Source of the DNA: a virus
DNA: 16,164 nt
Reading direction: 5' to 3' (one strand)
Virus genome (UHGV): UHGV-0142489
Shown here: positions 1,322-16,164 of the stretch, in pieces
Layout: each line of letters starts with the position of its first letter
Numbering within the stretch: position 1 is the stretch's first letter
Notes under the pieces: model-generated
Told to the model about the DNA's origin: nothing
Databases searched by the model: none
What the model saw: the letters and a program-made list of their open reading frames with translations, nothing else
Made by a program: the position numbers and the translations under genes

Positions 1322-2184
1322 TGTTGTTAGCTCTTCTAATTATCCCCATTCTGGTTAGTGGTTATATTATGATAACCGCTAACCAGTATCATTATTTCCG
1401 TTTATACCGACATGAAGGCCAGCTTCTTTATATGAAAGTAGCTGCATTAGGTACATATTGCCTTGTTGCTTCGGTAATAATTGCCGCATTTATAAAATAT
1501 AAATATCCTGATTTTCACCTAGTTCACGATATGGTGGAAACTTTTAATGTAACGTCAAAACCAGAAACAGATAGAATTTACATGTGGCTACTTCTTCTGT
1601 CAGTCACATCAATTTGCTTCTCTTTGTGTTATGTATCTTTTGTTTGGCTAAAAGATCTTCTTTTAGGTTGTTTTTATAAACGTGATATTTATGACAAAAT
1701 ATCAGAGGCAATGAAAGCTAGGGTATTGCGAAAAACGTACTCCCAGGGTTCTTTAGATTTGCTATTGCTTGATGCAATCGAATCAGATCCTAAGAAACCA
1801 ATGTTAATTACTTTATCATCAAATAAAGTATACGTTGGAATAATAAATGGTTCTGGTGAGCCAACGGAAAATCAAGGGCCACACCAACACATATCTTTTG
1901 TTCCTTTAATGTCAGGGTACAGAAACAAAGAAAATTTATCTGTTACATTTACAAACGCTTACCCAGGTGAAATCCAAATTAAGCGCAGTGCTGCGATAAA
2001 AGGGATAAGCAAAAAGAAAGTTCAAGGTCTAGAAATTATGGTATCTATAGACGAAATAAGTCATATATCATGGTTTGACTTTGAAGTATATAAGGCAACA
2101 AATAACAAAGTAGAAACAAAGGGGCATGTTGTTAATGTGACCAAAAATGGTCGCAACATATACTACAGAAGTGGCAGGAAATAA
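1321..2184 (+). CDS. Hypothetical membrane protein, 287 aa: three N-terminal TM helices plus ~175-aa cytoplasmic domain of unknown function
   Basis: GTG start at 1321 with AAGGA (1312-1316) upstream. Hydrophobic segments LLALLIIPILVSGYIMI, VAALGTYCLVASVIIAAFI and MWLLLLSVTSICFSLCYVSFVWL, followed by a basic stretch (KDLLLGCFYKRDIYDK), which by the positive-inside rule places the C-terminal domain in the cytoplasm. AT-rich (38 G+C in 1321-1420, hand count). An alternative start at ATG 1366 would delete the first helix. Confidence 0.7.
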   Translation: MLLALLIIPILVSGYIMITANQYHYFRLYRHEGQLLYMKVAALGTYCLVASVIIAAFIKYKYPDFHLVHDMVETFNVTSKPETDRIYMWLLLLSVTSICFSLCYVSFVWLKDLLLGCFYKRDIYDKISEAMKARVLRKTYSQGSLDLLLLDAIESDPKKPMLITLSSNKVYVGIINGSGEPTENQGPHQHISFVPLMSGYRNKENLSVTFTNAYPGEIQIKRSAAIKGISKKKVQGLEIMVSIDEISHISWFDFEVYKATNNKVETKGHVVNVTKNGRNIYYRSGRK

Positions 2185-2788: not shown

Positions 2789-2815
2789 TTAAAAACAAGG
2801 CCGCGAAAGCGGCCT
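2789..2815 (-). terminator. Intrinsic terminator closing the minus-strand virion operon
   Basis: Perfect 7-bp GC-rich stem AGGCCGC/GCGGCCT with GAAA tetraloop (plus-strand 2798-2815). On the minus strand the hairpin is followed directly by TGTTTTTAAC. It lies 9 nt downstream of the TGA stop of the 98-aa gene (2824-2826). Confidence 0.65.
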
Positions 2816-13594: not shown

Positions 13595-14199
13595 CAGCAC
13601 ATCCTCGCTACGGTAAACGGATCGTCAGGCATTTGCGGTTCCTGCGATTCGTTCATGCTGTGAGAGCCAGCGCTGAGGATGATCCGGCTATACATGCTCA
13701 GGGCATTATTGCCAAGGTCGGCATTACCCGTGAGAACCATGTTAATAGCCGCGGCCAGGCGCCAGGATAGAGCCTCCTGGAAGATGGAATCGAACATGTT
13801 CACGTCGGTGATGCGGGCAACATACCGAAGCCAGGCCTGCGGCAGATCGGTGTAAATCAGGCGCCCCGTGCCGGCGCTGTCCGCGCCGACCACGTACTGC
13901 ACGCGCATAGCAGCCGTCGGATACCGTACGCCAGGCAGCGGGATCTCAATAATACGGAGGCAGTCAGTGGGATAGGTATACGCATAATCCCAGTCCTGCG
14001 GCGGGTTATTGGTGTCAGCCAGCGCGATATTCTTGGTCGCAAAATTCCAGTCAAAATCGGCCAGGACAGCATCACGAATCGACTCGTAATACAGGGAGCA
14101 TTGCCCGGCTTCTTTGCTGGCTTCCTCCAGGCTGTTGATGCTCCGGTTATTACCGATGTTGCTCAGCGCCCGGTTGCAGATCTCAATGACAGAGGCCAT
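13594..14199 (-). CDS. Tail tubular protein A (T7 gp11-like), 201 aa
   Basis: Size ~200 aa; N-terminal ICNRALSNIG...SINSLEE, a central DFDWNF block and C-terminal EALSWRLAAAIN parallel the T7 gp11 pattern as I remember it. Lies immediately upstream of tubular protein B. ATG at 14199 overlaps the upstream TAA (TAATG). Confidence 0.8.
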   Translation of the reverse strand: MASVIEICNRALSNIGNNRSINSLEEASKEAGQCSLYYESIRDAVLADFDWNFATKNIALADTNNPPQDWDYAYTYPTDCLRIIEIPLPGVRYPTAAMRVQYVVGADSAGTGRLIYTDLPQAWLRYVARITDVNMFDSIFQEALSWRLAAAINMVLTGNADLGNNALSMYSRIILSAGSHSMNESQEPQMPDDPFTVARMC

Positions 14200-14522
14200 T
14201 ACTCGCCCCCTTCACCGTAAAGCGTCTGCGCCGCCGTCTTCGGTGCCTCACCTGAAACAGGTGCCAGCGCCATATCGGTGATTTGCAGATCCGCGCTGCG
14301 GAAAGTGCCATCGTCGCCTTCACGCGCCGAAATACCCTTAATCACTGCTTTTGCGGTGATCATCACCTCAGTGCCTACATTCTGTGGCTGCGCTTTCAGC
14401 TTGTTCAGGGTGTCATTGTTCAGCGTGATGCACAGCCCCCACGGATATTCGTCGCGGGTTTTGGTCTGGCCGCTTTCATCCTGGTAGCTGTCGGTGCCGG
14501 TTTTGAGATTGACCATTTCCAT
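14199..14522 (-). CDS. Hypothetical small virion protein, 107 aa
   Basis: ATG at 14522 with GGAG 6 nt upstream. First gene after the inter-module hairpin and translationally coupled to the tubular A gene. Acidic and hydrophilic. Confidence 0.65.
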   Translation of the reverse strand: MEMVNLKTGTDSYQDESGQTKTRDEYPWGLCITLNNDTLNKLKAQPQNVGTEVMITAKAVIKGISAREGDDGTFRSADLQITDMALAPVSGEAPKTAAQTLYGEGGE

Positions 14523-14530
14523 AGAACGCT

Positions 14531-14557
14531 CCTACAAGAAAGGGGCCGAAGCCCCCT
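14531..14557 (-). terminator. Candidate partial intrinsic terminator / RNA-stabilising hairpin between head and tail gene blocks
   Basis: GC stem GGGGC/GCCCC with CGAA loop (plus-strand 14542-14555). On the minus strand it is followed by TTTCTTGT, and it sits between the stop of the 113-aa gene (14573) and the ribosome-binding site of the 107-aa gene. Comparable in position to terminator T-phi after the capsid gene in T7. Confidence 0.45.
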
Positions 14558-14924: not shown

Positions 14925-15368
14925 TTAGCCGGTCACTTTAGAGCGGGTCGGGTACAGGGTATTCGCATCAACGTCCAGGTTGATACCGGAGGTGAACGCG
15001 CCAGCAGTCAGCGGGCCGGTGGCTACGGAGTAGTTCACACGCAGATAGCGCTGAACGCCCGCCGGTACCTTCGCCGACACAACGCGCTTACCAGCTTTAA
15101 GCGCTGCCAGAGCCAGGGGGCCGCTGTCATAAATGGTCGTCCAGGTGCTGTTGTCAGGACTGGTCTGCAACTGCACGTTGACGGTAGCGGCGCCAGCAGC
15201 GGTAGCCGTGGTGTTAACGAGAGCCCAGAACTCCAGCGGATAACCAACGCCGATATCACGGCGGGTGCCGTCGACAGGCGCCAGGTCAATCACATCGGTA
15301 GAAGCAGCAGTAGCCGTAACCGCCTGCGCTTCGGAGAACATCAACAGTTTGTCGAGGATCATCTTCAT
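14925..15368 (-). CDS. Small beta-rich virion protein, 147 aa (possible capsid decoration / cement protein)
   Basis: Directly downstream of the capsid gene. Thr/Ala/Val/Gly-rich composition typical of beta-sandwich head accessory proteins. GGAG lies only 2 nt from the ATG at 15368, so the ATG at 15362 may be the real start. Confidence 0.65.
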   Translation of the reverse strand: MKMILDKLLMFSEAQAVTATAASTDVIDLAPVDGTRRDIGVGYPLEFWALVNTTATAAGAATVNVQLQTSPDNSTWTTIYDSGPLALAALKAGKRVVSAKVPAGVQRYLRVNYSVATGPLTAGAFTSGINLDVDANTLYPTRSKVTG

Positions 15369-15415
15369 TTCTCCATTTAGCAGCCCGTTACCGGGCCGCT
15401 GGTTATAGTCAGGGG

Positions 15416-16164
15416 TTAAACCACGCGAGCTTCAGTTTCCAGAAGCGCATCGGTTTCGCGAATCGGAACGCCGCGGAAACTGGTCCACCAATCGCCTTCA
15501 GTCTCTTTGACGCTAATCGCCAGAGAGGATTTCTCCAGAGATTGCAGATCAAGAGCCTGGGCAACAGTGCGGTTCATGTAGAACACCGGGCGCCCCATGC
15601 CACGGTTAGGGATGCGATGCAGCGCTTTCACCATGAGCTTGGCGATGTTTGCTGCCGCAGCAGGATCGGACAGGTCGCTGATATCGATGTTCGCGATGCG
15701 GACAACGTAGCGCCAGTCGCGCAGGCACAGGCCGTTATCCCACTTATAGTGGGTGCGGTAGCCTTCATACTGGCCGCCGCTGGCATCTTTCAGAGTCTGC
15801 TGGCCTTTATCTTCCATCTGCAGACCTGCTTTCTGGCCTTTCGGGAAGATACCGTGAACGGTGTTTTCGCCCCATACAATGAGCCAGATTGAAGTGTTAT
15901 CGGTGCCAGTACCGCCGGCGTCGATAATGTTTTGCGCGTTGGTAGCCGTCAGGTCGGAGTAGCGAGAAGACAGGCCCATGAACTGCTGCGGGTTAACGCT
16001 GGAGTCGCCATAAAAAAGCGTTTGAGCCATCTGCTGATTCATCGCCTCGAGGAAAGCGCGATCTTCTGACAGCCGAAATTCAGCGGTATTTCCGTTCAGA
16101 TCTGCCAGAGATTTATCAATCTCCGCATAGGTTTCCAGCATGCCAATGCCATCGGTAACCTGCA
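15416..16164 (-). CDS. Probable major capsid protein, C-terminal ~249 aa (5' end lies beyond the window)
   Basis: The open frame runs to the window edge without a credible start; the M at 16141 in the track is internal. It is the first gene of the head-tail block and has a composition consistent with an HK97-fold coat protein. The call rests on position and general character only. Confidence 0.6.
   Translation of the reverse strand, partial: QVTDGIGMLETYAEIDKSLADLNGNTAEFRLSEDRAFLEAMNQQMAQTLFYGDSSVNPQQFMGLSSRYSDLTATNAQNIIDAGGTGTDNTSIWLIVWGENTVHGIFPKGQKAGLQMEDKGQQTLKDASGGQYEGYRTHYKWDNGLCLRDWRYVVRIANIDISDLSDPAAAANIAKLMVKALHRIPNRGMGRPVFYMNRTVAQALDLQSLEKSSLAISVKETEGDWWTSFRGVPIRETDALLETEARVV

What the first reader, a model, noticed from the sequence alone, without database searches (positions are those of the whole stretch)
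15381..15401. GC hairpin in the 47-nt gap immediately downstream of the capsid gene
GCCCG-ttac-CGGGC (15383-15396) lies between the capsid TAA (15416-15418) and the next start. It has no T-tract, so it looks more like an mRNA stability or processing element after the most highly expressed gene than a terminator.
Basis: seen in the sequence. Interest (0 to 1): 0.2.

Follow-up and report, generated by a model that had tools for sequence, protein, structure and literature searches.

The report
Conserved RNA hairpin after capsid gene
A short, very stable RNA hairpin sits between the major capsid gene and the next head gene of this epsilon15-like phage, and relatives keep its shape while its sequence changes; it most likely protects the capsid message from degradation rather than stopping transcription, which makes it a real but ordinary kind of element.

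Summary
The hairpin is real and larger than described. On the mRNA (-) strand it is a 9-bp stem with a GUAA loop, AGCGGCCCG-GUAA-CGGGCUGCU (15400..15379, -17.8 kcal/mol). This is the second most stable perfect hairpin in the window.

It starts 15 nt after the capsid TAA and ends 4 nt before the GGAG of the next gene. That gene probably starts at 15362, so the gap is 53 nt, not 47.

In 46 unique enterobacterial relatives the junction always holds a hairpin, with 32 different stem sequences. Compensatory changes and G·U pairs favour the sense strand. The stems diverge faster than synonymous sites.

No relative in this clade has a U-tract after the hairpin. Two other hairpins in the same window do: the gp9/gp10 junction and the operon end. 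It is therefore not a canonical intrinsic terminator.

The best reading is an intercistronic stem-loop that blocks 3'-exonucleases and stabilises the capsid segment, as at malE-malF or puf (confidence about 0.45). Translation-related roles and a 5'-protective role are not excluded.

The downstream gene is homologous to the BPP-1 cement protein, which weakens the idea of a step down in expression. No record I opened annotates the hairpin and Rfam has no match. New member of a known kind; low interest.

The parts
15379..15400 (-). Full RNA hairpin on the mRNA strand. 5' arm AGCGGCCCG 15400..15392, loop GUAA 15391..15388, 3' arm CGGGCUGCU 15387..15379. Nine pairs including one G·U; -17.8 kcal/mol.
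   Evidence: single copy in the window; structure conserved in relatives
15383..15396 (.).
15416..16164 (-). 3' part of the major capsid protein gene (epsilon15 gp7 type), open to the window end; stop TAA at 15418..15416
15401..15415 (-). 15-nt single-stranded spacer between the stop codon and the stem (CCCCUGACUAUAACC). Its length is held at 13-16 nt in the enterobacterial clade.
15371..15374 (-). Shine-Dalgarno GGAG of the downstream gene, 4 nt after the stem. The distance is 0-4 nt, mostly 4, in relatives.
   Evidence: invariant in alignment A1
14925..15362 (-). Downstream gene (Pfam Bbp16, homologue of epsilon15 gp8 and the BPP-1 cement protein). Likely start ATG 15362..15360; alternative in-frame ATG 15368..15366.
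14540..14557 (-). Second hairpin of the head-gene block, GGGGGC-UUCG-GCCCC followed by UUUCUUG. It resembles a canonical intrinsic terminator and probably defines the 3' end of transcripts that contain hairpin 1.
   Evidence: the equivalent is annotated as a rho-independent terminator in epsilon15

Best explanation
The element is an intercistronic RNA stem-loop in the late (head-gene) mRNA. It stays folded because it lies beyond the reach of ribosomes terminating at the capsid stop codon and just upstream of the next ribosome-binding site. It does not terminate transcription.

Its most likely job is to act as a barrier to 3'-to-5' exonucleases (PNPase, RNase II). Once the mRNA is cut somewhere downstream, or ends at the terminator after gp9, decay runs back only as far as this hairpin. 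The capsid-gene segment then outlives the downstream segment.

Shown: the hairpin exists, its pairing is under selection, it favours the sense strand, it lacks a U-tract and its position is fixed.

Inferred: the exonuclease-barrier function and any effect on capsid mRNA half-life.
For: 1. Stable structure on the mRNA strand: 9 bp, GNRA loop, -17.8 kcal/mol, z = -3.45 against -1.5 for the opposite strand.
2. Selection for pairing rather than sequence. There are 46 unique enterobacterial intergenic sequences with 32 distinct stems; 29 of the 32 beat shuffles at p <= 0.011.
3. Covariation in ungapped subsets that share a register. A3: 97% of cells paired, 4 of 9 pairs with double changes, covariation score 0.40 against 0.14 in shuffles (0/500), slid controls 30-48% paired. 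A4: 90% paired, 4 of 8 pairs with double changes, covariation score 0.319 against 0.226 (0/500 shuffles reach it; 61/500 reach the 90% paired).
4. Stem arms have 0.49 mean pairwise identity, against 0.62-0.70 at neighbouring third codon positions.
5. Loop sequence is free: GUAA, GAAA, GUGA, GCAA, UUAC, UGAU, UUCU and hexaloops. This argues against a sequence-specific protein site and for generic stability.
6. G·U pairs are frequent on the sense strand. The sense hairpin is more stable than the antisense one in 32 of 46 sequences (mean -14.2 against -10.2 kcal/mol, Wilcoxon p = 0.0004).
7. No U-tract in any enterobacterial lineage. In the same window the gp9/gp10 hairpin and the operon-end hairpin have U-rich tails, and the gp9/gp10 one keeps its tail across relatives.
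8. The stem always starts 13-16 nt after the stop. From my own knowledge of ribosome helicase reach, that is beyond what a terminating ribosome unwinds.
9. Strong hairpins occur at the same junction in distant relatives (BPP-1, Burkholderia KL4 and BcepC6B, metagenomic L142 and L124, a Pseudomonas clade). Their distances to the SD vary, which ties the feature to the end of the capsid gene rather than to the next RBS.
10. The mechanism is well documented in enterobacteria, for example malE-malF and many other operons (PMC5927463, read).
Against: - There are no transcript 3'-end or half-life data for any of these phages. The literature searches found none.
- The downstream gene is homologous to the BPP-1 cement protein, which is as abundant as the capsid protein in BPP-1 (PMC3863775). 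BPP-1 also has a U-less hairpin at this junction, so lower downstream expression may not be the aim.
- The tight 0-4 nt distance to the SD within the clade could mean a link to translation initiation.
- Epsilon15, SPN1S-type, Ab31, MPK9, Vibrio, Stenotrophomonas and PfDIW6 relatives lack the hairpin, with gaps of 4-38 nt, so it is dispensable for this head module.
- A few single contigs carry a mismatch or a deletion in the stem (L030, L037, L158).
Confidence: 0.45

Rival explanations
1. Translation-related insulator or decoupler. The always-folded hairpin separates terminating ribosomes on the capsid gene from the RBS of the next gene. It would block scanning or re-initiation by post-termination ribosomes, or keep the SD free of long-range pairing, so that gp8 output is set by its own RBS alone.
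For: The stem ends 0-4 nt (mostly 4) before an invariant GGAG in all 46 enterobacterial sequences. Relatives without the hairpin have the SD directly after the stop, with 4-12 nt gaps in epsilon15, Ab31 and MPK9. That is the layout expected for translational coupling, so the hairpin replaces coupling. The predicted energy to open the RBS is slightly lower with the hairpin than without it, and the native sequence is easier to open in 45 of 72 cases.
Against: The predicted effect on RBS opening is negligible: 5.83 against 6.23 kcal/mol on deletion. In BPP-1, KL4, BcepC6B, L124 and the Pseudomonas clade the hairpin lies 12-23 nt from the SD. A 12-18 kcal/mol GC-rich stem is stronger than simple insulation would need.
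Confidence: 0.2
2. Weak, non-canonical or factor-assisted transcription terminator or pause site. It would lower transcription of everything downstream of the capsid gene.
For: It is a GC-rich hairpin directly after the most abundant structural gene, the classic position of phage attenuating terminators such as T7 Tphi (my own knowledge). In the Pseudomonas-clade relatives the equivalent hairpin GAGCCGC-CGGGU-GCGGCUC is followed by UCCUUUCUC.
Against: There is at most one U in the first three bases after the stem, and the tail is A-rich in all 46 enterobacterial sequences. The site was not picked up by the terminator scan, whereas 14557..14541 and 2815..2798 were. Selection keeps U-tracts at the gp9/gp10 hairpin in the same genomes but never created one here. 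All tail and ejection genes, and the gp10-like cement gene, lie downstream and need transcription.
Confidence: 0.12
3. A 5'-protective stem-loop of the papBA type. RNase E cuts in the AU-rich spacer upstream of the stem. The hairpin then sits at the 5' end of the gp8-gp9 mRNA and shields it from 5'-end-dependent RNase E attack.
For: The single-stranded, moderately AU-rich spacer (CUGACUAUAACC, or CUGUUAUUAAC in relatives) immediately precedes the stem and is better conserved than the stem (0.68 against 0.49 identity). The hairpin lies a few nt upstream of the downstream SD, as in papA. The mechanism is documented in E. coli (PMC5927463). It would suit a downstream gene that needs high expression, such as a cement-protein homologue.
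Against: By inspection, the spacer has no clean RN|WUU motif with U at +2 in the window. Cutting there would strip the capsid mRNA of its 3' hairpin, which seems counter-productive for the most needed protein. In BPP-1 the stem starts only 2-6 nt after the stop.
Confidence: 0.1
4. Specific protein-binding operator (lambda boxB/nut-like, or a translational-repressor hairpin), or an RNase III site.
For: The 5-bp GC core with a GNRA loop superficially resembles boxB. GNRA loops (GUAA, GAAA, GUGA, GCAA) recur in several lineages.
Against: Loop sequence and length vary freely among close relatives, from 3 to 7 nt. No boxA-like motif lies anywhere near, upstream or otherwise. The location is in the late head operon. 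Nine base pairs is too short for RNase III, by my own knowledge. There is no Rfam match.
Confidence: 0.03
5. Chance palindrome or neutral relic with no function.
For: It is absent from several relatives. A few contigs carry stem mismatches.
Against: Expected 0.0006 times per gap. There are 32 different stems that all pair, with compensatory changes, while the sequence diverges faster than synonymous sites.
Confidence: 0.02

Closest known systems
Intercistronic 3'-protective stem-loops: the malE-malF REP hairpins, the Rhodobacter puf 'mRNA decay terminator', and the internal protective structures catalogued in E. coli operons (PMC5927463)
   Same: A stable GC-rich hairpin in the spacer after the upstream gene of a polycistronic mRNA. 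It lies on the sense strand, has no U-tract, and its structure is conserved across relatives. The host range (Enterobacterales) has the relevant PNPase, RNase II and RNase E machinery.
   Different: It is not a REP element: it is single-copy, 22 nt long and its sequence is not conserved. It lies in a phage late operon. The function is untested here. The downstream gene may also need high expression.
papBA-type 5' stem-loop stabiliser generated by RNase E cleavage
   Same: A hairpin a few nucleotides upstream of the RBS of the downstream cistron, preceded by a single-stranded AU-containing spacer.
   Different: No cleavage-site evidence and no clean RNase E motif. The upstream gene here is the one expected to need the most stability.
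Intrinsic (Rho-independent) terminators after phage capsid genes, for example T7 Tphi, and the gp9/gp10 terminator annotated in epsilon15
   Same: Position right after the major capsid gene; a GC-rich stem with a stable tetraloop.
   Different: It lacks the U-tract in all enterobacterial relatives. The true terminator-like hairpin of this head module (14540-14557) is a separate element with a conserved U-tract.
Hairpins at the same MCP/cement-gene junction in BPP-1 (GGGGGCGG-GCGA-CCGCCCCC) and in Burkholderia phages KL4 and BcepC6B (GGCGGCGC-UUCG-GCGCCGUU)
   Same: Same gene junction in homologous head modules; strong GC stems with GNRA or UUCG loops; no U-tract.
   Different: Unrelated sequence and different distances to the stop and the SD. 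These are probably independent acquisitions, and they are also uncharacterised.

Membership tests
Intrinsic (Rho-independent) terminator | GC-rich stem-loop of about 5-12 bp | tested here: met
   9 bp with 7 G-C pairs, -17.8 kcal/mol
Intrinsic (Rho-independent) terminator | U-rich tract immediately 3' of the stem | tested here: not met
   The tail is AAAUGGAGA. The terminator scan did not report the site, although it reported 14557..14541 and 2815..2798. No U-tract in any of the 46 enterobacterial relatives.
Intrinsic (Rho-independent) terminator | Transcripts end at the site | not testable with these tools
   No RNA data; no transcriptome paper found for Uetakevirus
Intercistronic 3'-protective (decay-barrier) stem-loop | Stable hairpin in the spacer downstream of a cistron, formed by the mRNA strand | tested here: met
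   z = -3.45 sense against -1.5 antisense. Sense more stable in 32 of 46 relatives, p = 0.0004.
Intercistronic 3'-protective (decay-barrier) stem-loop | Structure, not sequence, conserved among relatives | tested here: met
   32 distinct stems. Covariation 0/500 shuffles in A3 and A4. Arms 0.49 identity against 0.62-0.70 at third codon positions.
Intercistronic 3'-protective (decay-barrier) stem-loop | Hairpin not melted by ribosomes terminating upstream | tested here: met
   The stem starts 13-16 nt after the stop in the clade. The threshold comes from my own knowledge of ribosome helicase reach.
Intercistronic 3'-protective (decay-barrier) stem-loop | Processed 3' ends at the stem, and a longer half-life for the upstream segment | not testable with these tools
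   Needs 3'-end mapping and a rifampicin chase
REP/BIME element | Repeated element with a conserved consensus sequence, in many copies | tested here: not met
   Single copy in the window even with 3 mismatches. The stem sequence differs between close relatives. Host genomes were not searched.
lambda-type nut site (boxA + boxB) | Conserved boxB loop and a boxA motif a few nt upstream | tested here: not met
   The loop varies from 3 to 7 nt with unrelated sequences. No boxA-like match near 15400-15440.
RNase III processing site | About 20 bp or more of double-stranded RNA | tested here: not met
   9 bp here, 7-12 bp in relatives
papBA-type 5' stabiliser | RNase E cleavage (RN|WUU) just upstream of the hairpin | tested here: inconclusive
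   Inspection of the spacer found only partial matches. There are no cleavage data.
Any Rfam family | Match to a curated covariance model | tested here: not met
   Only a chance hit to P36 (E = 2.3), next to the hairpin and not on it

The most novel reading that the evidence does not exclude
The U-less hairpin, held 13-16 nt from the capsid stop and about 4 nt from the next SD, could be a dedicated stoichiometry device of GP7-type podovirus head modules. It would uncouple translation of the cement-like protein from the capsid protein and at the same time define a processing point. Its repeated independent appearance at the same junction (phiV10-like phages, BPP-1, Burkholderia phages, metagenomic relatives) would then reflect a general rule for setting capsid-to-cement ratios.
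Probability: 0.15. Interest if true: 0.4.

Novelty: new member of a known kind. Interest (0 to 1): 0.2.

Why it matters
The finding gives a clean, covariation-supported example of a structured intercistronic RNA in a phage late operon. In the same operon, selection keeps U-tracts on the terminator-like hairpins but not on this one. That contrast is useful for annotating Uetakevirus-like prophages of Klebsiella, Enterobacter, Escherichia and Salmonella, and for engineering capsid expression.

It also offers a simple test case for how phages tune head-protein ratios after transcription. It does not change any concept: such hairpins have been known since malEFG and puf.

Tried and rejected
1. A single consensus structure on MAFFT alignments of all relatives (A1, and N-padded A2) failed. 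RNAalifold found only 4 pairs at -0.36 kcal/mol, because the stems of different lineages are offset by one column. I used per-sequence hairpin statistics and two ungapped subsets that share a register instead.
2. Rfam with permissive thresholds found nothing on the hairpin.
3. boxA/boxB (nut) reading: rejected.
4. Recoding (frameshift or read-through) stimulated by the hairpin: rejected by inspection. There is no slippery heptamer at GUG GUU UAA. The +1 and -1 frames stop within 2-3 codons. The in-frame read-through product would add 12 non-conserved codons.
5. Terminator for the opposite strand: rejected. The + strand stem has an A·C mismatch, its tail GUUAUAGU is not U-rich, and it was not flagged.
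6. RBS-accessibility modelling gave a negligible effect.
7. Literature searches for transcript maps of epsilon15/phiV10-like phages, or for this hairpin, found nothing relevant.
8. Records opened for Tyrion and MK416010 carry no feature at the site; the epsilon15 record, which lacks this hairpin, annotates stem-loops only at gp9/gp10. The feature summaries for the other DNA hits, including phiV10 and TL-2011b, list none either.

Full report
**Context**

The window is part of the late (structural) region of an epsilon15-like podovirus or prophage. Its best DNA match is Klebsiella phage ST11-OXA245phi3.2 at 97%. It is 78-81% identical to Enterobacter phage Tyrion, Escherichia phages phiV10 and TL-2011b, and Salmonella PAT1.

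The structural genes run on the - strand. ORF 15416..16164 is the 3' part of the major capsid protein (Pfam GP7, E = 1e-111, profile positions 70-313) and is open to the window end. The next gene, 14925..15368/15362, matches Pfam Bbp16, the BPP-1 cement protein. It is followed by a 113-aa ORF and a Gp10-like gene. This is the epsilon15 order gp7-gp8-gp9-gp10.

**The observation**

The palindrome GCCCG-ttac-CGGGC is at 15383-15396, as reported. Read on the mRNA strand, the structure is larger: AGCGGCCCG-GUAA-CGGGCUGCU, 15400..15379. It has nine pairs, a GNRA tetraloop and a free energy of -17.8 kcal/mol. One pair is G·U on the mRNA strand and an A·C mismatch on the other strand. The 71-nt region folds with z = -3.45 on the - strand and z = -1.5 on the + strand.

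It is the second most stable perfect hairpin on either strand of the 16 kb window. Shuffles predict 0.0006 such hairpins in a gap of this size. It is a single copy in the window.

The stem starts 15 nt after the TAA (15418..15416) and ends 4 nt before GGAG (15374..15371). The downstream gene most likely starts at ATG 15362. That ATG is 8 nt from the SD, it is the only ATG present in most relatives, and it is the annotated start in MK416010. The gap is therefore 53 nt rather than 47. There is no U-tract: the tail is AAAUGGAGA, and the terminator scan did not report the site.

**Comparative evidence**

I collected 219 loci that hold both genes. They came from IMG/VR, GTDB genomes and GenBank phages and gave 79 unique junction sequences. 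In the enterobacterial clade, defined as a capsid C-terminus at least 75% identical and a gap of 44-50 nt, there are 46 unique stop-to-start sequences. The main findings are:

- **A hairpin is always present.** Every lineage carries a 7-12 bp GC-rich hairpin of -11.7 to -18.5 kcal/mol.
- **The stems differ.** There are 32 distinct stem sequences. Twenty-nine of them are more stable than shuffles of their own spacer at p <= 0.011. The three exceptions are single contigs with a mismatch or a deletion.
- **The position is fixed.** The stem starts 13-16 nt after the stop and ends 0-4 nt, mostly 4, before the SD.
- **The loop is free.** Loops include GUAA, GAAA, GUGA, GCAA, UUAC, UGAU, UUCU, AUUC and hexaloops.
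- **No single column-wise consensus exists.** Stems of different lineages are offset by one column, so global MAFFT alignments gave a meaningless consensus.
- **Covariation is clear in ungapped subsets that share a register.**
  - A3 (11 sequences): 97% of cells paired, 4 of 9 pairs with changes on both sides, covariation score 0.40 against 0.14 in shuffles (0/500), and 30-48% pairing when partners are slid.
  - A4 (15 phiV10-type sequences): 90% paired, 4 of 8 pairs with double changes including G-C/A-U/G·U and C-G/U-A/U·G series, score 0.319 against 0.226 (0/500 shuffles reach the score, although 61/500 reach 90% paired).
- **The stems evolve fast.** Stem arms are only 0.49 identical on average between relatives, against 0.62-0.70 at adjacent third codon positions and 0.94 at first and second positions. 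The loop-anchored comparison may slightly understate stem identity.
- **The sense strand is favoured.** G·U pairs are common on the sense strand. The sense hairpin is more stable than the antisense one in 32 of 46 sequences (mean -14.2 against -10.2 kcal/mol, p = 0.0004). The sequences are related, so this p value is indicative only.

The conclusion is that pairing, in the mRNA, is under selection.

**Not a canonical terminator**

None of the enterobacterial sequences has a U-rich tail. The same genomes do maintain U-tracts elsewhere:

- The hairpin between gp9 and the gp10-like gene (window 14540-14557, GGGGGC-UUCG-GCCCC + UUUCUUG) keeps both its sequence and a U-rich tail in 63 unique sequences. 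Its epsilon15 equivalent is annotated as a rho-independent terminator.
- Similar terminators close the head block in BPP-1, Ab31 and AF.
- The end of the late operon in the window has AGGCCGC-UUUC-GCGGCCU + UGUUUUUAAC.

These are the only two spacers longer than 30 nt inside the - strand gene array. Each is filled by a hairpin, but only one hairpin looks like a terminator.

**Wider distribution**

Epsilon15 itself, Ab31 and MPK9 have 4-12 nt gaps with no hairpin. Vibrio, Stenotrophomonas, PfDIW6, AF and Shamal have 23-38 nt gaps without a strong hairpin.

Unrelated strong hairpins without U-tracts occupy the same junction in other relatives:

- BPP-1: GGGGGCGG-GCGA-CCGCCCCC.
- Burkholderia phages KL4 and BcepC6B: a GC stem with a UUCG or UGCG loop.
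- Metagenomic contig L142.

Their distances to the stop and to the SD differ. A Pseudomonas clade has two mutually exclusive hairpins, the second followed by UCCUUUCUC. The feature is therefore recurrent at the 3' end of the capsid gene but dispensable.

**Mechanism**

The best-supported reading is a permanently folded intercistronic stem-loop that blocks 3'-to-5' exonucleases. After cleavage downstream, or after termination at the gp9/gp10 terminator, the capsid segment would keep a protected 3' end. This is the malE-malF/puf mechanism, which is widespread in enterobacterial operons (PMC5927463).

The following features fit this reading:

- high stability;
- free loop sequence;
- sense-strand pairing;
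- no U-tract;
- a distance from the stop that keeps the stem outside a terminating ribosome;
- recurrence at the end of the capsid gene.

None of this is direct evidence. I found no transcript maps for these phages.

Two observations argue for caution. First, the downstream gene is a homologue of the BPP-1 cement protein, which is equimolar with the capsid protein there (PMC3863775). BPP-1 also has a U-less hairpin at the junction, so a drop in downstream expression may not be the purpose. Second, the tight distance to the SD in the enterobacterial clade is what a translation-related role would predict, either decoupling from the capsid gene or insulating the RBS. However, modelling showed almost no effect on RBS opening, 5.83 against 6.23 kcal/mol.

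A papBA-like 5'-protective role and a weak or factor-assisted terminator remain possible. A specific protein operator (boxB-like), an RNase III site, a REP element, recoding and chance are rejected.

**Verdict**

The element is not annotated in the related records I opened (Tyrion, MK416010) or in the feature summaries of the other DNA hits, and it is absent from Rfam. It is a new, well-supported member of a long-known kind of element, so interest is low.

Noticed in passing
window 14540-14557 (- strand): Second hairpin, GGGGGC-UUCG-GCCCC followed by UUUCUUG, lies between the gp9-like and Gp10-like genes. Its sequence and U-tract are conserved in 63 unique relatives. The equivalent is annotated as a rho-independent terminator in epsilon15, and similar terminators close the head-gene block in BPP-1, Ab31 and AF. 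All tail genes lie downstream, so it must be read through.
   Followed up: partly
window 2798-2815 (both strands): Canonical terminator AGGCCGC-UUUC-GCGGCCU + UGUUUUUAAC at the end of the - strand late gene array, facing the + strand genes. It served as an internal contrast to the U-less hairpin.
   Followed up: no
window 1351-1386 (+ strand): A 15-bp perfect palindrome, CTGGTTAGTGGTTAT-ATTATG-ATAACCGCTAACCAG, is the most stable hairpin in the window (-21.8 kcal/mol). It lies at the 5' end of ORF 1321-2184, which has no Pfam hit. It could be an operator, a terminator or a recombination site.
   Followed up: no
window 15360-15368 (- strand): There are two in-frame ATGs for the Bbp16-like gene. 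The ORF list takes 15368, but SD spacing, relatives and the MK416010 annotation favour 15362.
   Followed up: yes
window 14199-14522 and 14925-15362 (- strand): The phage encodes both a Bbp16-like protein (BPP-1 cement-protein family) and a Gp10-like protein (epsilon15 capsid staple family). Which of the two decorates the capsid, or whether both do, is unknown.
   Followed up: no
loci L100-L123 (Pseudomonas-associated relatives), about 1445-1500: Immediately after the capsid stop there are two mutually exclusive hairpins, CCCGGC-UGAGCC-GCCGGG and GAGCCGC-CGGGU-GCGGCUC. The second is followed by UCCUUUCUC. The layout looks like an attenuator in which the terminating ribosome could choose between the folds.
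   Followed up: no
L159, L163, L194, L085 against the window, capsid/gp8 junction: Identity jumps across the spacer; in L159, for example, the capsid C-terminus is 98% identical but gp8 is 86%. This suggests that the junction is a recombination (mosaic) boundary. The first 25 nt of gp8 (ATGATCCTCGACAAACTGTTGATG) are unusually conserved at the DNA level.
   Followed up: no
L023:1439-1512: This hairpin (AGCCGCUCG-UUAC-CGGGCGGCU) is closer to the reverse complement of the window hairpin (3 differences) than to its direct sequence (5 differences). That is consistent with an inversion of the stem-loop by template switching.
   Followed up: no
L095 (BPP-1), L224 (KL4), L225 (BcepC6B), capsid/cement-gene spacer: Strong GC hairpins with GNRA or UUCG loops and no U-tract follow the capsid gene in these betaproteobacterial phages. 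None is annotated.
   Followed up: partly
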